From Alphaproteobacteria bacterium (GTDB lineage: Bacteria > Pseudomonadota > Alphaproteobacteria > SP197), in assembly GCA_964291265.2 (NCBI GenBank), contig OZ219747.1, forward strand, positions 1,344,001 to 1,408,000: 64,000 nucleotides of DNA, read 5' to 3'. The position numbers were made by a program, and so were the translations under genes. The first letter of the stretch is position 1, and each line of letters opens with the position of its first letter. Below, in pieces: positions 21,649 to 57,543 of the stretch. The notes beneath the pieces were generated by a model. The model saw only the letters and a list, made by a program, of their open reading frames with translations, was not told where the DNA came from and ran no database searches.

Positions 21649-21785
21649 GGACCACTATGTAAGGCCTCATGAACGGCGAGTTAAACACGGCGTTTGACAG
21701 GCCAAGGGGAGTGTGGTTATGGCCGAATCGGATATCCTGTCAGCGGGCGTGGACAATGCAGGAGCGTGAAGGTTTGCCGTCCGGT

Positions 21786-22121
21786 ATGACGCGGGTTGAC
21801 GATGCGCTGCTGCGGCGGATGACGGTGGCTATCGTCGAGGCGGCCGATCCCGAACAGGTGATCCTTTTCGGCTCCCGCGCCCGCGGTGACGCCGGGGCGG
21901 ACTCGGACGTCGATCTGGTGGTCGTCGAGGCGGAGCCGTTCGGGCCGGGCAGGGACCGTGGGGCCGAAGAGACGCGCCTCTGGCGCGCACTCGCGAAATT
22001 CCATGTTCCGAAGGATATCCTAGTCTACAGCTTGGACGAGGCCGACCGCTGGCGCGGCTCCCTCAATCATGTGCTCGCGCGCGCGTTGCGCGAAGGCAAG
22101 GTGCTCTATGAGCGACCTTGA
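21786..22121 (+). CDS. Minimal nucleotidyltransferase (MNT) antitoxin
   Basis: VILFGSRARGD...SDVDLVV motif; overlaps the downstream HEPN gene. Confidence 0.88.
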   Translation: MTRVDDALLRRMTVAIVEAADPEQVILFGSRARGDAGADSDVDLVVVEAEPFGPGRDRGAEETRLWRALAKFHVPKDILVYSLDEADRWRGSLNHVLARALREGKVLYERP

Positions 22122-22506
22122 GCAGGCGCAGGAGCTGTTCCGCGCGGCTGAGAGAGACATTTCGGCGCTTCGCGGCATGGGCGATGCAGCCGTCTTCGCC
22201 GACGAGATTTTCGGCTTCCATGTCCAACAGGCGGCGGAGAAGCTGTTCAAGGCATGGCTCGCCTCGAAGGGCGAAACCTACCCGCTGTCGCACGATCTGG
22301 CGGCTTTGCTGGACATGCTGAGCGCCGACGGAGCGGAGGTCGCCCGTTTCGACGGGTTGGTGGACTACACCCGCTACGCCGTTCGCCTGCGTTACGCGGA
22401 CGCCGACCCGGGCACGTGCCCGCTTGACCGGCTTGGAGCAGTCGAACGGGTGGAAGCGTTAATGGTGGCCGTCCGGCACCGATTGGCGGAAACGGAAGCA
22501 GGCTGA
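22108..22506 (+). CDS. HEPN domain protein (MNT-HEPN pair)
   Basis: FHVQQAAEKLFKAWL, SHDL and YAVRLRY motifs. Confidence 0.88.
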   Translation: MSDLEQAQELFRAAERDISALRGMGDAAVFADEIFGFHVQQAAEKLFKAWLASKGETYPLSHDLAALLDMLSADGAEVARFDGLVDYTRYAVRLRYADADPGTCPLDRLGAVERVEALMVAVRHRLAETEAG

Positions 22507-22525
22507 CGGTAAGCGTTCGGTCACG

Positions 22526-24300
22526 GTGCAGCGAGTCTAGCTGCTGTACTTGCGGGTGTGAGCCCCGCCGGCGCAATTCTCAGTTTGGCGCCGTAGCATA
22601 TCCCACTGGTTCAGGGGTGACCCTGGACCAGCGAGCTGGGATGTAGAAGCCGTTGTGGGCTGGTTGGAACGCAGTGTCCAGCCGGTTCGGTCAGCCAGGA
22701 CGGCGAGCAAACCGGAGGGCCGCAGCGAAAGCGAACGATTGTATGAAGCCACGAAATGACGCTCCCACATGAAGCTGATTTGTGGGGTAAACGGGAATGC
22801 CAAAGGCTTCGTGACTGCCCGATGGCCAGAGTCGATGCGGAAGAACTGAGGTGCACGCATTGGGTTCCCCGGGGTAGAGACGACGGCAATCCGGGACAGT
22901 ACAGCAGTGAAAGATCGGAAGGTCAGGAGGACAGACAGGATGAAGTGACCCTTGAATGTCAAGGACCGCGTCTATAACCAGGATTGGGAAAGGACGCGGA
23001 GTCCTCCTGACTGGCGGATGAGGTCGAGTAAGCGTTGACGGGCGGGACAACACAACCCGTCCCGAGCGAGGACCTCAGGGCTCAGGTGGCCTATGCGGCA
23101 GGTCAAGTCGGTACTCAGAGACCGGCACCGACCGACAGACTGCAAGGTCGAAGGACGGAGCAAACGCTCGGAGATGCCGTGGGTATGGATGGGTCAGCCT
23201 TGACCATGGCGTGTCCGGCGGAAGGCTCCGCACCGAACTCCAAGTGGGTGCCTGATGCTTGAAGCCGTACCCGGGAAAACCGGACGTACGGAATTTTAGG
23301 GGGGCGTGCAGCGAGTCTAGCTGCTGTACTTGCGGGTGAAAGTCCCGCCGGCGCAATTCCCAGTTTGGCGCCGTAGCATATCCCACTGGTACAGGGGTGA
23401 CCCTGGGCCAGCGAGCTGGGATGTAGAAGCCGCTGTGGGCTGGCTGGAACGCAGTGTCCAGTTGGTCTGGTCAGCCAGGGCGGCGAGCGAACCGGAGGGC
23501 CGTAGCGAAAGCGAACGATTGTACGAAGCCTCGAAAATGAAATTTCCCACATGAAGCTGACTTGTGGGGTGTTGGGAACGCCAAGGGCCTGCCCCCAGCT
23601 TGGTGGCCAGAGTCGATGCGGAAGAACTGGGGAGCACGCATCGGGTTCCCCGTGGTAGAGACGACGGCAATCCGGGACAGTACAGCAGTGAAAGGCCGGA
23701 AGGTGAGGAGGACAGACAGGATGAAGTGACCCTTGAATGTCAAGGACCGCGTCTATAACCAGGACTGGGAAAGGACGCGGAGTCCTCCTGACTGGCGGAT
23801 GAGGTCGAGTAAGCGTTGACGGGCGGGACAACACAACCCGTCCTGAGCGAGGACCTCAGGGCTCAGGTGGCTTATGCGGCAGGTCAAGTCGGTACTCAGA
23901 GACCGGCACCGACCGACAGACTGCAAGGTCGAAGGACGGAGCAAACGCTCGGAGATGCCGTGGGTATGGTCGGGTCAGCCTTGACCATGGCGTGTTCGGC
24001 GGAAGGCTCCGCACCGAACTCCAAGTGGGTGCCTGATGCTTGAAGCCGTACCCGGGAAAACCGGACGTACGGAATTTTAGGGAGGCTGCTGGAAACGTGG
24101 TCTATGGTAGTTCTGCGACCCCGCCCGCAATCGAAAGAGCGGTGCCGGACAAAGCCTCTGCCTACGGATGCGCGCGCCAGCGGCCTACCCGACTGCTGGA
24201 AACGTGGTCTATGGGAGAACTGCGACCCCGCCCGCAATCGAAAGAGCGGTGACGGACAAAGCCTCTGCCTACGGATGCGCGCGCCAGTGGCCTACCCGAC
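22526..24300 (+). ncRNA. ORF-less group II intron (outer member of a homo-twintron; 22526-23305 + 24194-24300)
   Basis: 5' GTGCAGCG; domain 5 GAAGCCGTACCCGGGAAAACCGGACGTACGG at ~23261-23291; 3' end CCTACCCGAC. Removing it restores the IS66 end exactly, and EBS1 CGTGAC pairs with the exon GTCACG. Confidence 0.88.
23306..24193 (+). ncRNA. ORF-less group II intron (inner member, 888 nt) inserted in domain 6 of the outer copy
   Basis: Same termini (GTGCAGCG...CCTACCCGAC); domain 5 at ~24042-24072; EBS1 GCCCCC (23591-23596) pairs with GGGGGC (23300-23305). Confidence 0.88.
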
Positions 24301-25058
24301 CGGTGATTGTTGGTGATATTCACCGGTTGAGGATGCGTTTCCAGTCCTTGCGCAGAGGCCTCAGCTAGATGTCTTTTTCGGCTTGTCGTGTTTCTTGTGC
24401 GCATCGTAGCGGCCTCGTCCTTGGGTGGTTCCGACACGGATCCATCCTGACGCCTTGTAGACGGCTCCTGTGTAGCGCGGTATTCGGACGAAGGTTTCGA
24501 TAGGGGTGCGCGTATGGCATGACGGTTTCATTGGCACTACCCTTTGGGCGGGTCCCTCTCGTGGCGATCAGACGGCGAAGGGCAGTTGAGCAAGACCATC
24601 CCACGCTAGAATCCTTGAATGAAGCCAATAGTGCACAGATGAGCCAAGTTTTCATCATGGACATATTCAGGCGGCAAGGGTCTGTCCCTCCCGGAGTTTG
24701 CTGACCTCGTCATCGAGCGAGTGGAGGATGCGTCCGAGCTTGGATGGCACCTTGTCATCGAAGGCCGCCGCCAGGGCAGGGCTGAGTGTCCGCCGGTGGA
24801 TGCGGCACCAGGCAAGAGCGATCCTCTGCCCGGTTTGCGTCAGACGATAGCGATGGGATGACGGTATCCTCTCGATGAGGCCCCGCAGGCGCAGGCGCCG
24901 CAGGTCATAGGTGGCTTGACGTGAGCCATGGGTGTCGGTCGACAGGAGATCGGCAACGGCCTCTCTCATCTGGCGATTGTTGAAGCCCATGAGGAGGAAG
25001 ACATGCAGCAGGATGGCTGCGAGGACTGCCTGGATGCGTGGAGCACCGAAGCGCTTAG

Positions 25059-30204: not shown

Positions 30205-31421
30205 GTAACTGCCCAGGTCTGATTTTGCCGAGTCCTGACGGGAGGTGGATTGATGGCTGCGGTCTGATGGCGCCGAGGAGGGATGTCAGAAGCGCAGTTT
30301 CGGGATCAGCTGTATGGGATCGGGGTGGGCCAGTGTTTCGAGGACATTCCAGCCCTGTTTTCGGGCGATGGAGATGACGGATCGCAGCTTGGCGAAGTCC
30401 CATGCGCCCTGCATGGATCGGAAGCCGCCCGAGATTTTCTGGCGCAGCTTGCTCATGCGGAAGTCTTGCTCGGCCTGGTTGTTGGAGAACGGGACTTGCG
30501 GGTTGGTGAGGAAGCGCAGGCAGCCGTCCTTGTGCTTCTGAAGGCGAAGCGCGAGGTTGTGGCCGATGCGGCGTTTTCGTCGTCCGCGCTTTCCGGGCTG
30601 GAGCGGCGGCCTCTGTTCGTGGGAAGCGATGGCCTGCTCGAGGATCCTGTCCCAGGTTTGCGAGATGCGGGCGAGGAGTGAAGCGGGGATGTCGCGGTCG
30701 TTCTTGCGGGCGAAGCGGGCGGCTCTGTTGGCACGGATGAGGAGCCTGTGCATGGCGGTGGCCCAGTCTTCCTTCTCGGTCTCGATCAGAGCCTGGAGTT
30801 CGCGCAGGTGATGGGCGTTGCAGGCACCGTGGCGCACGCCCTCGAGAGTGAAGTAAGTGGCCAAGTCGTCATGGATGACGATGCCGTTGAGCGTCTCGTC
30901 GATGTGTTTGCGCCCGGTGGCGATGCGCAGGATGGTGAGCAAGGGGGTGCACAGCACATGGAGCCAGTGGGTCTGGCCGTTGATGCGGATGCCGGTCTCG
31001 TCGAGGTGTTTGACCGGTGCTTGGGTGCGGTGTGCCAGGTGAACTGGCGGAAGGTAGGGGGTGAAAGTCCCCTGGAACGAAGGAGTAACCAAACCACGTT
31101 TCTCCGCGAGCCGTGCGTCGGTTCCCGCGAGGGGGCAGGCGAAGCGTCGGTAGCGGTGCGGATGGGCGGGGCTAATGAGCACCGAAAAAGCAGTCATCCG
31201 GGGTGCCGAGGCTTTCGTACCGGTCGAAGGCAACATCGCAGGCATCGATTTGGTGAGATGTCGACGAGCGGTGTCCGAGAACCCATGCACGTCCGTACGC
31301 CTTCTGTTGGGACCCTGGGAGGTCTTCGAACTATCCCGCCTGTCGTGGCGGGATCGTGTAGGGAAAGGAGAAAGCCGAAGCCTATGATGGATGGTTTGAA
31401 GAAGTCGGATGGGGCCGTAGG

Positions 31422-32264
31422 GTGTGCTGGGCAGCGCCCAGATCAGGTGGGTTCAAGTCCCACTGGCGCTCGGGTAAGGGGCGCCATATCCAAAAGCGGG
31501 GGTCATTCCTCGCTGGCCGGGGTGAGCGAATAAGCGACGCCCTAAACGGGCACGAAGTTGGAAACGACGGACACTGCCAAGGGAAGAGCTAAGTTGGTTG
31601 ACTGTCGAGAGACAACCGGAGGGCAGGGTGTCCACCGTGAGGTGGAATCTGAAGGGCTTGCGGAGAAGTACCGGGCCGTAATCGAGGGGGCGACCCCATG
31701 ATGAATCGGTCGGCCAAAGACGGGGCAAGGTCGAGCCGGCACTATGGCGGCGAAGGCGTTCTTACTCACCCGTCGCACCAAGGTGTTTGCGAACGGCACG
31801 GTACGGAAGATCTGGACGTGACTCCAGGAGGGCTCGTCGTGTTCCCGGGTGGCACCGGGATAACGGCCCCTATAAGCCGAGAGGCGAAGTGGGAAAGGAT
31901 GCACGGCGAGCAATCGGACAACCGAATAGTACCACAAGCCCGGTGAAAGCCGGGTGACCGCGCGAGCGGCGACCGGGTGGGTCGGGGAAGGCGGTTGGCA
32001 GAGGTGGTTGGTGAGAGACGGTGAAGGAGCGAGTAAGGATCATGACGCGGACAAGTTCCATGAGCGAAAGACCCGGACGTCATGGGCCGAGGAGACTGGT
32101 TCACTGGCTCAACCTGACGGGAGAAAGGAAGGTCCACTCACTGGTGGGATCGCTTGATCTCACTGGTCCCTTCCCTGAACCTTCGAAGAGACCCCCCTGT
32201 GAAAGCGGCTTACGGGAAAACCGTACGGGCCGTTTGAGCGGCGGACGGAGGCCAGCCCTGCGGG
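31422..32264 (+). ncRNA. Nested ORF-deleted group II intron of a different type, lacking its 3' end
   Basis: 5' GTGTGCTGG; domain 5-like AAAGCGGCTTACGGGAAAACCGTACGGGCCGTTT at ~32202-32235; absent from the sister intron at 55320-55331. CCCCAT and ACTATGG are complementary to the host site ATGGGG and CCGTAG. Confidence 0.75.
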
Positions 32265-32381
32265 CCGGTGAAGGCGGCGAACAAGGGAGCGTCAGCTTCT
32301 GCGGAGTCGCCGGAGGAAAGGGCCTCAACCAAGGGGAATCCGGGACGCCAAAGCACGCACCGAACGCAGTGTCGGGCAAGT

Positions 32382-33713
32382 GTGCCACAGGCGGCGGACC
32401 GGATACGGGAAGCTGCAGAGAGGAACCCGAAGGAGCGTCTCACTGCACTCTTCCATCACATTACGCCGGATGCGCTCCGGGCGGCCTACTTCGGTTTGAA
32501 GAAGGAAGCCTCGGCAGGTGTCGACGGCGTGACGTGGGCGGCGTATGGCGAGGGTCTGGACGAGCGCTTGCTTGATCTGCACTCGCGCCTGCATCGTGGG
32601 GGAGCGTACCGGGCGCCGCCGGTTCGGCGGGTTGAGATACCCAAGCCGGACGGCGGGGCACGACCGCTCGGGATTGCCGCACTGGAGGACAAGATCGTTC
32701 AGAAGGCGGTTGTGGATGTGATCCTGACACCGATTTATGAGGTGGAGTTCCTTGGCTTCAGCTACGGGTTCCGACCGGGCCGAGGGGCGCATGACGCTCT
32801 CGACGCCCTGGCGTTCGAGATCGAGCGGCGCAAGGTCAACTGGATAGTCGACGCGGACATTCAGGGGTACTTCGACACAATCCCGAGGGATTGGTTGATC
32901 AAGTTCCTGGAGCATCGCATTGGCGACAGGCGGGTGATCCGTCTGATCCGCAAGTGGCTGAACGCTGGCGTCATGACCGACGGATCATGGAGCGATACCG
33001 GTGCGGGCACGCCTCAGGGTGCCATTGTCAGCCCCTGCCTGGCGAACGTGTTTCTGCACTACGTGCTCGATCTGTGGTTTCACAAGGCATGGCGTCCGAA
33101 GGTTCCGAACGGTGAAGCGATCATTGTCCGCTACGCGGACGATATTGTGGTCGGGTTCCAGCACAAGCGGGATGCGGAGACATACCTTCGCGACGTTCGG
33201 GAGAGGCTGGACCGCTTTGGTCTCACCCTTTACCCGGACAAGACCCGTCTCGTCGAGTTTGGCCGGTTTGCCAAGGCGAACCGGCGATCTCGCGGGGCGG
33301 GCAGGCCGGAGACGTTCGACTTCCTGGGCTTCACGCACTTCTGCACGGAGACCCGGAGAGGACGCTTCAGGCTTGGTCGCAAGCCGGTCGCAAAACGGGT
33401 CGCAAGGACCCTGGCGCGCATCGAGGAGGTGCTTCGCAATCGACGGCATCACGACATATGGGAGGTCGGCATGTGGCTTGGGCGGGTCTGTCATGGCTGG
33501 TTCAACTACTTCGCCGTCCCGGGGTCGACCCGATGGCTGCGCACGTTCCGCCACAGGCTGCAACGCCTATGGCTGCGAGCGATCCGCCGCCGCTCCCAGC
33601 GCCACCGTTTTGACTGGAAGCGACTGGAGCGCATGACCGAGCTTCTTTGGCCGCGCGTCTCCATCCGCCACCCATGGCCGATCCAGCGGTTTACCGTCAA
33701 GCACCCGAGGTAG
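32382..33713 (+). CDS. ltrA: Group II intron reverse transcriptase/maturase, no endonuclease domain
   Basis: AGVDGVT, IPKPDG..RPLGIAALEDKIVQ, SYGFRPGR, GTPQG and YADD, followed by the X domain. The stop is immediately before domain 5; the start codon is uncertain. Confidence 0.93.
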   Translation: MPQAADRIREAAERNPKERLTALFHHITPDALRAAYFGLKKEASAGVDGVTWAAYGEGLDERLLDLHSRLHRGGAYRAPPVRRVEIPKPDGGARPLGIAALEDKIVQKAVVDVILTPIYEVEFLGFSYGFRPGRGAHDALDALAFEIERRKVNWIVDADIQGYFDTIPRDWLIKFLEHRIGDRRVIRLIRKWLNAGVMTDGSWSDTGAGTPQGAIVSPCLANVFLHYVLDLWFHKAWRPKVPNGEAIIVRYADDIVVGFQHKRDAETYLRDVRERLDRFGLTLYPDKTRLVEFGRFAKANRRSRGAGRPETFDFLGFTHFCTETRRGRFRLGRKPVAKRVARTLARIEEVLRNRRHHDIWEVGMWLGRVCHGWFNYFAVPGSTRWLRTFRHRLQRLWLRAIRRRSQRHRFDWKRLERMTELLWPRVSIRHPWPIQRFTVKHPR

Positions 33714-34579
33714 GAGCCGGATGGATTAACGTCCAAGTCCGGATCTGTGCGGGGGGTGCGCAGTAATGCGCATCCCTACCGCGACGATGATCTCTGCGAC
33801 ATGATCGAGGAAGCTCTCGAAGCGCCGGGCGGTGCGCCTGCCCATGGCGGCGATGGTGGCGGTTGAGATCCTGACGGCGAAGAGGTCGCTCATGACCTCG
33901 GCGACGCGCTTCTCGGGAATGAACTGGGCGTGCAACAGGTAGGTCACCCAGGCGGTGATGCGCGGCCCGTACTGGACCGGGGCGCTCACGCCGTGCGGGA
34001 AGGCGGCTGTTGTCACGGCGCCGCAGGCGGCGCAGAGACAGCGATGGGCGCGATGTTCGGTGACCTCGAGGGGCTGCGGCTCGGGCATGTCGAAGACCTG
34101 CCGACAGACGGGTTCTGCGTGACGGTCATCATCCGACAGCGCCGCGCCGCAGCCCTTACAGGCAGACGGAGCATGATCGACGACGTGGTCCGGGTTCTCG
34201 GCCTGCTTCAGGGTGACTCCCTCGTGGCCGCGCTGACCGCCACTGGGCCTGTCGGACTTGCCGCGCTGGCTCCGGGTGCGCTTCTGTCGGTTTCCGCTCT
34301 TCTTCTTCGGACCGTCGCTGGCCGGTGGCTTGGAGCTGGTGGAGCTGTCGAGCGCGGCGCTGCGCTCGAGTGCATCAATCCGTTCGCGCAAGCCGGTGTT
34401 CTCCCGCTCCAGCGCCTCGATCTCCCCGACCAGCGTCTCACTCAGGCGCAACATCCCCTGGCCCCAATCCCGGAGGGCCTTGACGGCAGTCACGGCGAAG
34501 GGGTGTGGACTGAACAGGTCCTGAAGGCCCACGAAGGCCTCGTCCTGGGCGGCGATGTCCTCGCGCCAGCGCGAGACGG

Positions 34580-54658: not shown

Positions 54659-57543
54659 GTAAGCGTTCGGCCGTTCGGTGATGGCTGATTTTGGTTGGTT
54701 TGGGTCTTGCTGACTATCGTCTGAGAAAGAGCTGGTAAACTCGTTTGGTCTCGATTATGGTCGAGGCCATGAAGACTTTTGCCGAGACGCGCGGAGCGAC
54801 ACAGCAGCTGACGGGAGGTGGTGACGGCCTATGTCGGGCGTCAGTGGCCTTGTCATGCGAGGCGCCTGACTGGCGTGCGCTCTATGAGGCGGAGCGGGTT
54901 CGTGCGGATGCGGCGGAAGCGCGTATGCGGTGTGCCAGGCGAACTGGCGGAAGGTAGGGGGTGAAAGTCCCCTGGAACGAAGGAGTAACCAAACCACGTT
55001 TCTCCGCGAGCCGTGCGTCGGTTCCCGCGAGGGGGCAGGCGAAGCGTCGGTAGCGGTACGGATGGGCAGGGCTAATGAGCACCGAAAAAGCTATCATCCG
55101 GGGTGCCGAGGCTTTCGCATTGGTCGAAGGCAACATCGCAGGCATCGATTTGGTGAGATGTCGGCGAGCCCCGCGGTGTCAGAGAACCCATGCACGTCCG
55201 CACGCCTTCTGTTGGGACCCTGGGAGATCTTCAAACCGTCCCGCCGGTTGTGGCGGGACCGCATGGGGAAGGAGAAAACCGAAGCCTATGATGTACGGTT
55301 TGAAGAAGTCGGATGAGGCCGTAGTACCTGTGAAGGCGGCGAACAAGGAAGCGTTAGCTTCTGCGGAGTCGCTGGAGGAAAGGGCCTCAACCAAGGGGAA
55401 TCCGGGACGCTAAAGCACGCACCGAACGCAGTGTCGGGCAAGCGTGCCACAGGCGGCGGATCGGATACGGGAAGCCGCAGGCTAGTCCAGTGGTTTGCCG
55501 TCCAGTACCCGAGGTAGGAGCCGGATGGATTAACGTCCACGTCCGGATCTGCGCGGGGGGTGCGCAGCAATGCGCATCCCTACCGCGTCTGACCTGCGCC
55601 GTGCGAAGAATTCTGCCCGTGCCCGTGCGGGCACATTCAAGTTTCATCTCGACCGCACTCGTGATCAGCTCAAGGAGGCTCGCCGGGAGGTGAAGCGTGG
55701 ACAGGCCCGAGCGGAGGCGCTGGAGCAGGAAAGGGACGCTCTGAAGCTCAAGAACGCTGAACAGGCGAGCGAGCTGAGGAATCTCCGCGGGACGCGTGCC
55801 AAGCACGCGACGGCGCGCTTCGGGTCGAAGAGCGAGAAACGGAAGAAGAAGGAAGGCACCGGGAACAAGCGGGGTCAGCAACCCGGCAAAAGAGCGGCCA
55901 CGGGCGCACTCCGCGTCCGAAGCTCAAGGAGAAGCACGAACGCCATGATCCACCGGCATCGCAGCGCACGTGCCCGTGTTGCGGCGAGCCCTATGTGGCC
56001 AACGGCAGCCACGAGACCTCGATCATGGAGGTCCATGTCAAGGCTCATATCCGGCGGATTGAACGTGGGCGTTGGCGCCGTGGTTGTCAGTGTTCGTCGG
56101 CGCCTGCGGAGATCATCGCGCCGCCACCTTTGCGCTTGCTTGCGAATACCCCCTTCGGCATCAGTGTCTGGGAATGCGTGCTCTATGAGCGCTTCGCCTG
56201 CTTGCGTCCCCTGCGCCGGGTCTCGCGATGGCTGGAAGACCAGGGACTGCCGATGGCGCCGGGAACGATCGCTGGCGGCATGAAGAAGATGACGCCGATG
56301 TTCGCGCCTCTCGCTCAGGCCATCCTCGATCATCAGAACCGGCTGACGGTGCGCCACGGCGACGAGACCAGCTGGCGCATCCAGTCCCTCAAGGCCTCGG
56401 GGCGCTCGCAGAAGGCCTGGCTGTGGACCGCGGTCAGCGCCGACTCCGTCTTCTTCCTTATCGACCCGTCACGCAGCACCCGGGTGGCCATGGTGCTGTT
56501 CGCCTCCACCGAAGGCACCGTCTTCCTTGTCTGCGATCGCTACGCGGTCTACAGGAAACTGGAGCGTGAGCTTGATGGCAAGGTGATCCTCTGCCTTTGC
56601 TGGGCGCACTCCAGGCGCGATGTGATCGAGGCTGCGGCAGGCCAAGAGGGGCTGGAAGAGTGGTGCGACAAGTGGCTCGACAGGATCGCGCTGATCTACA
56701 CACTGAATGGGCAACGGCTGAAGCACTACGATCCCGCACGCAAGCGTCAGTCAGCGAGGTTCAATGCCCTGCAGAAGGACCTTCGTGCGGCTGTCGAGGC
56801 GCTGTTCAGGCAGGCTCAGGAGGAACTCGACGCCTTGCCCGAGGGTGCACGCGAAGCGAAGCCCTTGCGTTCCCTGATCCGTCACCGCGAGGGACTGTGC
56901 GTCTTTGTCGACCATCCCCAGGTGCCCATGGACAACAACTTTGCCGAGAGAACCCTCCGGGGTGCGGTGACCGCGAGAAAGCTGAGCTTCGGCTCCGACA
57001 GCGAGGAAGGCGCCGCCTTCACCGCCATCATGTACTCGGTCATCGGCACCCTTGCCATGAACGGCATCAACGTTCGGCGCTGGCTTCATGAGTGGCTTGA
57101 TGCCTGCGCGCAGAACGGCGGCAAGCCGCCGGATGACCTCGACCCGTGGCTGCCATGGTCGATGACCCCGGAGCGTCGAAGGGACCTCATGGAACCGGGG
57201 TGATCGAGTGCCGTTACGACGGCCGTGACTTCACCGCGCACGAGATGGCGCTGTTGCGCTCCCTGATCACCCAGCACCCCACCCGTGCGGCCATCGCCCG
57301 CGCCTTCTGCCGCGAGACCGGCTGATACAAGCCCGACGGGGCCTCAAGAACATGATGGCGAATGTCGCCTTTCTGGCCATGCACCGCGACGGCCTCATCA
57401 CCCTGCCGCCACCCCAACGACGAGCAACCCGACCCGGACCCATCGTCTTCGGACCCAACAGCGAACCGCCACGTGGTGCGCCTCCCAAACGCATCCTCAA
57501 CCGGTGAATATCACCAACAATCACCGCGTGGCCGAACGCTTAC
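54659..57543 (+). mobile_element. IS66-family element copy B (both IRs intact)
   Basis: IRs GTAAGCGTTCGGCC and GGCCGAACGCTTAC; 8-bp TSD ATCTGGCT. Transposase 54757-57203 carries an intron and a frameshift near 55888; DUF4338 (57200 onward) has a stop and an internal deletion. Confidence 0.92.
54930..55589 (+). ncRNA. ORF-deleted derivative (660 nt) of the 31030-33785 group II intron, sense in the IS66 transposase
   Basis: Same 5' end and domains 5/6. The RT is reduced to its first and last codons, and the 3' end is GTC rather than GAC. Removal restores ATGCG|TGACCTG as seen in copy C at ~59516-59527. Confidence 0.9.

What the first reader, a model, noticed from the sequence alone, without database searches (positions are those of the whole stretch)
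22526..24300. ORF-less homo-twintron with fully reprogrammed EBS1/EBS2: an intron retargeted to its own family's domain 6
Seen: two closely similar ~888-nt ORF-less group II introns, one inserted just after domain 5 of the other. Their strongest divergence lies in the target-recognition segments, and each matches its own insertion site. In the outer copy, EBS1 CGTGAC (22810-22815) pairs with GTCACG (22520-22525) and EBS2 GACGCT (22758-22763) pairs with AGCGTT (22512-22517, one G-T). In the inner copy, EBS1 GCCCCC (23591-23596) pairs with GGGGGC (23300-23305) and EBS2 GAAATTT (23539-23545) pairs with GAATTTT (23291-23297, two G-T). The IBS2-IBS1 spacer is 2 nt in both. Known: EBS-IBS pairing determines group II intron targets. 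Inference: this is a non-autonomous ribozyme family that swaps guide segments on a conserved scaffold (a natural targetron library) and is mobilised in trans. The 5' end GTGCAG also departs from the GUGYG consensus.
Basis: partly seen in the sequence, partly recalled or inferred. Interest (0 to 1): 0.88.

Follow-up and report, generated by a model that had tools for sequence, protein, structure and literature searches.

The report
Gene-less intron invading its own kin
A group II intron with no gene of its own sits in the predicted branch helix of six sister copies in this genome, its guide segments are complementary to that spot, and it likely got there with a reverse transcriptase borrowed from an unrelated intron family.

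Summary
Observation confirmed. An 888-nt ORF-less group II intron (23306-24193) sits 7 nt into domain 6 of an 887-nt sister (22526-23305 + 24194-24300). The quoted EBS1/EBS2 pairings are right, and EBS3 fits too.

The genome holds six such twintrons. Their inner copies are identical while the outer copies differ, which points to a recent sweep into 6 of 7 intact sisters. Across 34 guide variants, EBS1 matches its own flank (5.65 of 6, against 3.91 shuffled). All 73 full-length members are ORF-less and IIF-like, and RF00029 misses the window's two copies. A second genome has a domain-6 invader on a separate branch of the tree.

No cognate RT was found. The only intact RT here belongs to an unrelated intron family (RF02005, class E-like), so trans mobilisation is inferred. 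A replication-strand bias supports RT-based homing. Self-immunity by one base change is only suggestive.

The principle is known from T. elongatus TeI3/TeI4. What is new is that both partners lack an ORF, the target is the family's own branch helix, and no RT-bearing parent was found. The scan found this family before on other DNA (e1-775528, e1-2315896), and self-nesting or domain-6 targeting in other introns.

The parts
21669..22506 (+). Nucleotidyltransferase (MNT) plus HEPN gene pair just upstream, same strand; a possible source of read-through transcription (inferred)
   Evidence: Pfam PF18765/PF01909 and PF05168
22509..22525 (+). 5' exon: end of an IS66-type element, carrying IBS2 (22512-22517) and IBS1 (22520-22525) of the outer intron
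   Evidence: The same end sequence flanks an IS66 transposase at 54659-57543; 31 uninterrupted perfect target sites elsewhere in the genome
22526..23305 (+). Outer intron, domains 1-5 and the 5' strand of the domain-6 basal helix
   Evidence: RF02003 hit 22550-22730; alignment; consensus fold
22758..22763 (+). Outer EBS2 (GACGCT)
   Evidence: covariation test
22810..22815 (+). Outer EBS1 (CGTGAC), in a 9-nt hairpin loop
22877..22877 (+). Outer EBS3 (G), pairs with C24301
   Evidence: C/G/T at this position follows the first 3'-exon base in 21 of 24 parsed variants
23260..23297 (+). Outer domain 5 (AGC triad, 5-nt loop, extra AA bulge); its 3' end 23291-23297 is IBS2 of the inner intron
23299..23305 (+). 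5' strand of the outer branch helix (GGGGGGC); 23300-23305 is IBS1 of the inner intron
23306..24193 (+). Inner intron (the domain-6 invader), 888 nt, ORF-less, six identical copies in the genome
   Evidence: RF02003 hit 23330-23510
23539..23545 (+). Inner EBS2 (GAAATTT)
23591..23596 (+). Inner EBS1 (GCCCCC)
23658..23658 (+). Inner EBS3 (G), G.U pair with T24194
24041..24078 (+). Inner domain 5
24080..24193 (+). Inner domain 6 (long, structured; predicted branch A24187). A24083 replaces the G of the target and weakens pairing with the inner's own EBS1
   Evidence: fold z -2.9; duplex -6.2 versus -12.5 kcal/mol
24194..24300 (+). Rest of the outer domain 6 (predicted branch A24294), 3' end AC
24301..24301 (+). 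First base of the 3' exon (IBS3 of the outer); the IS66-type end continues
31030..33785 (+). Candidate helper (not physically linked): RT-bearing group II intron of another RNA type (RF02005), RT ORF 32268-33713
   Evidence: 16 full-length RT copies in the genome, 14 of them identical

Best explanation
This is a real twintron of two ORF-less, IIF-like group II introns of one family, in which the inner variant carries guides complementary to the family's own domain 5/6 junction and likely reached six sister copies one by one by retrohoming, with a reverse transcriptase likely borrowed from the unrelated RF02005-type intron that is abundant in this genome. SHOWN: the nesting and its boundaries; EBS1/2/3 complementarity and family-wide covariation; six identical inner copies in outer copies that differ; no RT gene in any member examined; no intact group II RT in this assembly other than the RF02005-type family. 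INFERRED: the lariat reverse-splices into single-stranded DNA of the lagging-strand template at replication forks (En-minus route), and a trans-acting RT copies it; the helper is the RF02005-type (class E-like, name recalled) protein; guides change under selection for new targets, and whole domain-1 modules recombine between variants; the invader's A24083 lowers re-invasion of itself; invasion likely curbs the outer variants, which now need two splicing steps or must carry an 888-nt bulge in domain 6. Odds by step: nesting real 0.97; guide-directed targeting 0.97; separate recent invasions 0.85; RT-mediated 0.85; RF02005-type helper about 0.45; self-immunity functional about 0.4.
For: (1) Six twintrons with distinct flanks; the inner is 100% identical in 6 of 6. 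Five outers differ by 4-8 nt pairwise, with 13 segregating sites against 0 in the inner (0.5^13 if the pair moved as a unit). Four different outer haplotypes persist within about 120 nt upstream of the site. (2) Covariation, one representative per distinct EBS1 loop (n=34): EBS1-IBS1 5.65 of 6 versus 3.91 shuffled (0 of 5000 shuffles reach it); EBS2 5.31 versus 4.25 (0 of 1000); EBS3-IBS3 paired in 21 of 24 parsed. (3) No RT in domain 4: 73 of 73 full-length members are 839-904 nt; 0 of 105 domain-5 sites with at least 900 nt upstream have a [YF]ADD ORF ending near domain 5 (overlapping loci count twice). (4) Replication bias: all 6 twintrons lie with their sense strand on the G-rich strand; the one intact un-invaded target is in the opposite orientation; 10 of 13 family sites (p 0.046) and 15 of 16 RF02005-type RT copies show the bias; empty targets pile up in the other orientation (22 vs 7, and 8 vs 0). 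(5) A 68-nt 3'-end remnant lies exactly at an IS66 target at G000:C2:3544651, as expected from incomplete reverse transcription. (6) PF00078 finds 18 matches in G000: 17 of the RF02005-type family and one truncated fragment. In the genus, 8 of 8 genomes with a family hit have a group II RT, against 2 of 14 without; 17 of 18 further carrier genomes have one. (7) An independent domain-6 invader in L032/L033 groups with its own host (100/100), as the window's invader does.
Against: No splicing or mobility was observed. The helper is not cognate: the family RNA is RF02003-type, the RT intron is RF02005-type, and their RNAs share no significant sequence similarity (best E 0.23). Known trans cases involve closely related introns (PMC2882425, PMC4424553). 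A truncated RT of a third family (G000:C2:1340093-1340566, 43% to an RF02003-type intron's RT) may be a recently lost helper. At least 5 of 18 carrier genomes show no listed RT above 50% identity to the window's RT (126 rows were not listed). RT co-occurrence is confounded by kinship, assembly quality and general mobile-element load. G000 may be incomplete. Self-immunity: GGGAGG is common in metagenome members (32 of 77 junctions), and the L032 invader's EBS1 CCCTCC matches its own GGAGGG perfectly. The window's outer copy equals the T6 outer from column 403 on (0 differences, against 36 before), so recombination between copies happens and conversion cannot be excluded. Orientation explains the single un-invaded copy with only 1-in-7 odds, and that copy also has an IS 19 nt downstream of the site.
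Confidence: 0.6

Rival explanations
1. Same RNA-guided retrohoming, but the helper is a closer, class-F-like RT that was lost very recently or sits on an element missing from the assembly.
For: Known trans-mobilised ORF-less introns use closely related IEPs (PMC2882425 passages). G000 holds a truncated RT that is 43% identical to an RF02003-type intron's RT, with 99-100% identical ORF-deleted copies of that third family.
Against: No RT-bearing member in 54 + 79 loci. No full-length RT above 37% identity to an RF02003-type RT in five carrier genomes (partial hits up to 44%). The third family's RNA scores best to RF02001, below its cut-off.
Confidence: 0.28
2. The inner intron inserted once and then spread among sister copies by RecA-type gene conversion, using the homologous outer flanks; no RT was needed for the sweep.
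For: The window's outer copy is a mosaic (0 differences from T6 after column 402). The inner copies are identical. Each target has 780 + 107 nt of flanking homology.
Against: Private outer polymorphisms survive at positions 665, 675, 691 and 865, within 84-116 nt of the site. The un-invaded copy and the empty sites sort by replication orientation. The 3544651 remnant already carries the outer-type 3' end, so the mosaic may predate the sweep.
Confidence: 0.12
3. The 1.78-kb twintron moves as one unit: the branch helix can form around the inner intron, so the composite splices and homes with the outer guides.
For: All seven 5'-strand bases of the branch helix lie upstream of the insertion and pair equally well with either 3' strand (-9.0 kcal/mol).
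Against: 13 segregating sites in five outers against 0 in six inners. Two outer guide variants carry the same inner copy.
Confidence: 0.05
4. The family moves without any intron-encoded protein: the ribozyme reverse-splices into single-stranded DNA unaided and a host enzyme copies or repairs it.
For: Protein-free complete reverse splicing into DNA was shown in vitro for P.li.LSU.I2 (PMC11754743 passages). IIF introns self-splice in vitro (PMC3753933 passages). No RT-bearing member was found.
Against: 8 of 8 genus carriers have a group II RT against 2 of 14 non-carriers. Many members sit inside RT-bearing introns (21 of 66 flanks have an RT hit within 1.5 kb).
Confidence: 0.05
5. The nesting, or the identity of the inner copies, is an assembly artefact of near-identical repeats.
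For: G000 is an assembly with many repeats. The run contigs are short, and none listed spans the whole stretch.
Against: Six loci with distinct flanks and distinct outer haplotypes. The junction fits EBS1/2/3. The same architecture occurs in L032. A contig of run X4 covers 23216-23533 without a mismatch.
Confidence: 0.02

Closest known systems
Thermosynechococcus elongatus TeI3 (ORF-less, family F3) inside TeI4 (F1) twintrons; Mohr, Ghanem and Lambowitz 2010, PMC2882425 (passages read)
   Same: ORF-less introns that diverged into families by EBS change; identical inner copies in diverged outer copies, read as recent independent insertions; other variants target IS elements; mobilised in trans.
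   Different: There the outer intron encodes the helper RT, the site is in domain 4 between two start codons, the RNA is IIB1 and the ORF-less form is a recent deletion. Here both partners are ORF-less, the site is the branch helix of domain 6, the RNA is IIF-like, the lineage is deep (64-81% identity to the window's inner copy) and no RT-bearing parent was found.
Nested introns of Methanosarcina acetivorans (Dai and Zimmerly 2003; paper not held; seen only as summarised in PMC4424553 and PMC2882425)
   Same: Repeated site-specific homing of group II introns into related introns, giving a lasting homing site.
   Different: By the paper's title the targets are intron ORFs, and RT-bearing relatives are present; here the target is ribozyme core and no cognate RT is present.
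Lycophyte mitochondrial cox1i1149g2 self-inserted 'zombie' twintron; PMC7049729 (passages read)
   Same: A group II intron inserted into a copy of itself.
   Different: Organellar; the inner copy is degenerate and lies in domain 4. Here the inner copy is intact, has retargeted guides and occurs six times.
Bacterial class F / IIF introns (Ge.ur.I1, Pe.th.I2, D.a.I1); PMC3753933 and PMC3552965 (passages read)
   Same: alpha' in a hairpin loop, a bulge in the EBS1 stem, a 5-nt domain-5 loop, a long structured domain 6, and EBS1/2/3 target reading; the same Rfam domain-1 model as RT-bearing introns in L132/L133.
   Different: No IEP; A at position 5; an invariant AA bulge opposite the catalytic triad; not detected by RF00029.
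RmInt1 (En-minus, class D); PMC8914252 (search listing and start of abstract only)
   Same: Preference for the lagging-strand template, and targets inside IS elements.
   Different: RmInt1 encodes its own RT.

Membership tests
Group II intron ribozyme | Six-domain fold with covarying helices | tested here: met
   RNAalifold on 26 members: 226 pairs, 117 with a two-sided change; RF02003 above cut-off
Group II intron ribozyme | Domain 5 with AGC triad and 2-nt bulge | tested here: met
   Triad and bulge present; an extra invariant AA bulge (26 of 26) lies on the 3' strand; RF00029 gives no hit at E<=10
Group II intron ribozyme | Domain 6 with bulged A near an AY 3' end | tested here: met
Group II intron ribozyme | 5' end GUGYG | tested here: not met
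   GTGCAG 50, GCGCAG 20, GTACAG 3 of 73; boundaries are fixed independently by EBS1 and by empty sites
Group II intron ribozyme | Self-splicing activity | not testable with these tools
   needs an in vitro assay or RNA reads
Subgroup IIB-type exon recognition | EBS1, EBS2 in an internal loop, and EBS3-IBS3 | tested here: met
   definitions from PMC8643678 passages
Class F / IIF introns | alpha' at a hairpin tip, bulge in the EBS1 stem, 5-nt domain-5 loop, long domain 6 | tested here: met
   features from PMC3753933; seen (alpha 22580-22586 pairs with 22772-22778 by inspection). The first three are shared with IIE; the long domain 6 points to IIF
Class F / IIF introns | Encodes a class F (g2-g5) RT in domain 4 | tested here: not met
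   no RT in 73 full-length members or at 105 domain-5 sites: works like IIF, but is not a class F retroelement in the IEP sense
TeI3/TeI4-type trans-mobilised ORF-less introns | Recent multicopy spread to sites that match the EBS | tested here: met
   6 identical copies here; 9 copies with 0-1 differences and 10 copies with 0-7 differences in two other genomes
TeI3/TeI4-type trans-mobilised ORF-less introns | A closely related RT-bearing intron in the same genome | tested here: not met
TeI3/TeI4-type trans-mobilised ORF-less introns | IEP shown to splice and mobilise the ORF-less RNA | not testable with these tools
   needs a mobility assay
Serially spliced twintron | Inner excision required before outer splicing | tested here: inconclusive
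   the branch helix can in principle form around the insert; no RNA data
Class E identity of the candidate helper | IEP clusters with class E references | not tested
   name rests on a recalled N-terminal motif; RF02005 type and 5-nt domain-5 loop seen

The most novel reading that the evidence does not exclude
A deep lineage of IIF-like group II ribozymes has lived without any RT gene of its own across several bacterial groups by borrowing the RT of unrelated intron classes. Its guides are free to change, and it has at least twice produced cannibal variants that home into the family's own branch helix; here one such variant took 6 of 7 sister copies while a single base change shields it from itself. 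This would be a natural case of a ribozyme served by a non-cognate, shared maturase/RT.
Probability: 0.35. Interest if true: 0.8.

Novelty: new variant of a known kind. Interest (0 to 1): 0.58.

Why it matters
[quoted passage not shown] This family fits that exception: RF00029 misses the window's two copies, no RT-bearing parent was found, and it is still spreading. If a non-cognate RT moves it, it offers a direct test of how introns came to rely on a shared splicing protein, a step often invoked for the origin of the spliceosome. The 34 natural guide sets show which positions tolerate change in a compact, roughly 880-nt scaffold that could serve for gene targeting. The twintron is also a clean test of whether a branch helix works with a whole intron bulged out of it, and of parasite-on-parasite control of intron copy number.

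Tried and rejected
No RT-bearing cognate found. The 2.8-kb copy at G000:C2:3658598 looked like one but holds an IS1634-like element in domain 6 (name recalled from its N-terminus). Viral contigs gave 0 matches with three patterns. Plasmids gave no match to the intron and two short chance hits to a related domain 5/6. 400 genomes of the phylum gave only nine short matches at E above 0.001. No RNA holder was listed; this says nothing about expression. Runs with small shares were not used as evidence of habitat; X5 had no contig laid.

Templated rewriting of EBS1 from the target was considered: complementarity does not run past the 6-7 paired bases in the window's two copies, so there is no support. 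Sequence mimicry of the RF02005-type intron's RNA was not found. The part of X4 record 25 beyond the junction mixes inner and outer alleles and was treated as a chimeric contig, not as a triple nest. A first self-pairing energy used a shifted register and was replaced.

Rows dropped before the covariation count: 2 of 73 that did not parse and 1 tandem copy; 10 of 34 variants had no parsable EBS3 motif. The metagenome pattern needs an intact domain 6, so it cannot show domain-6 invasions.

Papers not held: Simon et al. 2008 (PMC2525955) and Dai and Zimmerly 2003 (PMC1370365). Either may already describe this RNA type or a domain-6 insertion. No supplements were read; the class consensus figure of PMC4028801 could bear on the 5' end. 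Paper searches that showed no description of this family or target: (listings only). From recall, Euglena plastid twintrons include insertions in domains 5 and 6; the passages read in PMC3534033 neither confirm nor deny this.
Full report
Observation. The window holds GTGCAG at 22526 and again at 23306, and CCCGAC ends at 24193 and 24300. Removing 23306-24193 leaves an 887-nt intron that differs from the 888-nt inner one at about 59 of 890 columns. Both match RF02003 above its cut-off, and neither has an RT ORF. The most divergent 6-nt windows (5 of 6 differ) are at EBS1 and EBS2.

Anatomy. RNAalifold on 26 diverse members gives the six-domain fold, with 117 of 226 pairs showing a two-sided change. 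EBS1 is in a 9-nt terminal loop; EBS2 and EBS3 are in internal loops. The inner EBS1 hairpin is not the best fold when folded alone, so its assignment rests on the alignment. Domain 4 is about 190 nt and structured. The hairpin-tip alpha', the bulged EBS1 stem, the 5-nt domain-5 loop and the long domain 6 are traits given for IIE/IIF and IIF introns (PMC3753933 passages). RT-bearing introns in L132 and L133 score 116 and 109 bits on the same RF02003 model, and L132's RT has the FADD motif of group g2. Two traits depart from the textbook: A at position 5 (73 of 73) and an AA bulge opposite the AGC triad (26 of 26). RF00029 finds nothing in the window's two copies even at E<=10; a survey that starts from that model (PMC8919778 passages) would miss them.

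Where the insert sits. The site is after the seventh base of domain 6's 5' strand, at the top of the helix that holds the branch A. The outer 5' strand pairs equally with its own or the inner 3' strand (-9.0 kcal/mol); the inner's own 5' strand pairs at -9.9. Inner-first splicing is therefore likely but not forced.

The genome. G000 holds six twintrons (two in tandem), one monomer broken by an IS1634-like element 19 nt past the site, and six remnants. Five twintron outers and the broken monomer carry a third guide set (EBS1 GGATCC, EBS2 GATGCT, EBS3 C). Their flanks are GGATCC, GGATGC or GGGTCC with G as the first 3' base, and the spacer is 1-3 nt. Because the intron itself starts with G, this variant can reinsert at its own 5' junction, which explains the tandem pair. 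The window's outer targets an IS66-type end with 31 empty perfect sites (one search lists 32, one being the remnant). The invader's full target is empty at only two places: the IS-broken copy and a decayed copy. The inner is identical in 6 of 6 copies, while five outers have 13 segregating sites and keep private alleles 84-116 nt from the site. That favours separate recent insertions over movement as a unit or long conversion tracts; Mohr et al. used the same argument. Against this, the window's outer is a mosaic: 36 differences from T6 in columns 1-402 and none after. Recombination between copies does occur and can exchange the whole guide-bearing domain 1.

Signs of RT-based movement. By GC skew (switches near C2:722k and 3292k), all six twintrons have their sense strand on the G-rich strand, the lagging-strand template. 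The intact un-invaded target and the decayed one face the other way. 10 of 13 family sites and 15 of 16 RT-intron copies share the bias, and empty targets are mostly in the opposite orientation (22 of 29, and 8 of 8). This is the habit of En-minus introns such as RmInt1 (start of the abstract of PMC8914252). A remnant at C2:3544651 is the last 68 nt of the intron placed exactly at an IS66 site, as incomplete cDNA synthesis would give; a deletion is also possible.

The family. The GTDB scan gave 54 loci in 21 genomes of Alphaproteobacteria, Binatia and one unassigned bacterium. The metagenome scan gave 123 or more stretches, of which 79 were examined. 8 of 22 same-genus genomes have hits; these sets may overlap. 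73 distinct full-length copies are 839-904 nt, and those from other genomes are 64-81% identical to the window's inner copy. None of 105 domain-5 sites has an RT ORF ending before it. With one representative for each of 34 distinct EBS1 loops, EBS1-IBS1 scores 5.65 of 6 (shuffled 3.91, 0 of 5000), EBS2 5.31 (shuffled 4.25, 0 of 1000), and EBS3 pairs in 21 of 24 parsed. Related variants are not independent, so these are not formal probabilities. 21 of 66 copies have an RT hit within 1.5 kb, and many sit in domain 1, domain 3, the ORF or domain 5 of other introns. Two other genomes hold 9 and 10 near-identical copies. Contigs of runs X2 and X3 carry the invader's guides unchanged and appear to carry two more EBS1 variants (GCTGAC, GCCGAT; read from the difference table). 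A contig of X4 bridges the 5' junction without mismatch. These four runs are one study and may include the source.

A second invader. L032/L033 holds a twintron at the same domain-6 position. In the tree each invader groups with its own host (100/100), so the habit arose twice, unless recombination blurred the scaffolds. Both invaders have EBS2 GAAATT and an A at position 4 of domain 6.

Self-immunity. In the window that A halves EBS1 pairing with the invader's own domain 6 (-6.2 versus -12.5 kcal/mol) and keeps the helix. 6 of 7 sisters are invaded against 0 of 6 invader copies (p 0.004), but the invader copies are also younger. The A is present in 32 of 77 metagenome junctions and 2 of 39 genome junctions, and L032's EBS1 matches its own A form perfectly. 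The claim is suggestive only.

The helper. PF00078 and tblastn find one intact RT family in G000: 16 full-length copies, 14 identical, with RF02005-type RNA, plus one truncated RT of a third family. I call the first class E from a recalled motif; this was not tested. All 8 genus carriers have a group II RT of some class, against 2 of 14 non-carriers. 17 of 18 other carriers have one, and at least 13 have one close to the window's RT. Five carriers have no full-length RT above 37% identity to L132's RF02003-type RT. No RNA similarity links the two families. I put the RF02005-type RT at about 0.45 and a lost or unbinned closer RT at about 0.28.

Comparison and verdict. EBS-diverged ORF-less families, identical inner copies and trans mobilisation are known from T. 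elongatus (PMC2882425). Nested homing is known from Methanosarcina (seen in summaries only) and self-insertion from lycophyte mitochondria (PMC7049729). I found no description of this family or of homing into a family's own branch helix, but two key papers were not held. Earlier notes of this scan report the family in other genomes, and self-nesting or domain-6 targeting by other introns; these are unchecked leads. Verdict: real, a new variant of a known kind, interest 0.58. It would deserve 0.8 if a non-cognate RT is shown to move it.

Papers seen: passages of PMC2882425, PMC7049729, PMC4424553, PMC4028801, PMC8919778, PMC3552965, PMC8643678, PMC3534033, PMC4649490, PMC3753933 and PMC11754743; abstract and outline of PMC12584367; listing only for PMC8914252. 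No supplements were read.

Noticed in passing
window 31030-33785: A second twintron: the RF02005-type RT intron sits in an IS66 and is itself interrupted at about 31420-32265 by an ORF-deleted intron of a third family, whose RT survives only as a fragment at G000:C2:1340093-1340566.
   Followed up: partly
window 54928-55590 (RF02005 hit 54964-55188): ORF-deleted copy of the RF02005-type intron with a 50-aa RT stub; 16 such stubs in the genome, 14 of them in the G-rich orientation: a second, cognate non-autonomous family.
   Followed up: partly
window 21669-22506: MNT (nucleotidyltransferase) plus HEPN gene pair, probably a toxin-antitoxin module; the IS66 end carrying the twintron begins 2 nt after its stop codon.
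   Followed up: no
G000 genome-wide (e.g. window 16422, 22509, 48680, 54659, 57533): A very abundant IS66-type terminal repeat, many copies apparently as short MITE-like elements.
   Followed up: partly
L004 (G000:C2:3117383-3119158): Twintron T3 interrupts, in sense orientation, a large repeat-rich adhesin-like ORF that has five empty paralogous sites; both splicing steps would be needed to express it.
   Followed up: partly
L001 and L002 (G000:C2:3658598 and 3772762): The T4/T5 tandem and the IS-broken monomer occupy the same site of a repeated ISAs1-like transposase gene (name recalled), antisense; 8 copies are empty. IS1634-like elements hit domain 6 of this family twice (also L007).
   Followed up: partly
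L132 2244-3125 and L142: A family member inserted at the start of domain 5 of an RF02003-type RT intron.
   Followed up: no
L041 and L067: A full copy followed by a second copy that starts at family position about 195, in two genomes: possibly a variant that targets the family's own domain 1, later trimmed by recombination.
   Followed up: no
L046, L063, L066, L068, L074, L076, L081: In the Binatia genome, RT genes close to the window's RT are split at about residue 237 by a family member.
   Followed up: partly
window 23964-23966 (family position 661-663): An invariant ATG inside the structured domain 4 of all 26 aligned members; possibly a relic start codon or a protein-binding motif.
   Followed up: no
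L113, L128, L131, L151, L156, L170: Other ORF-less or ORF-deleted introns that share this domain 5/6 but differ upstream.
   Followed up: no
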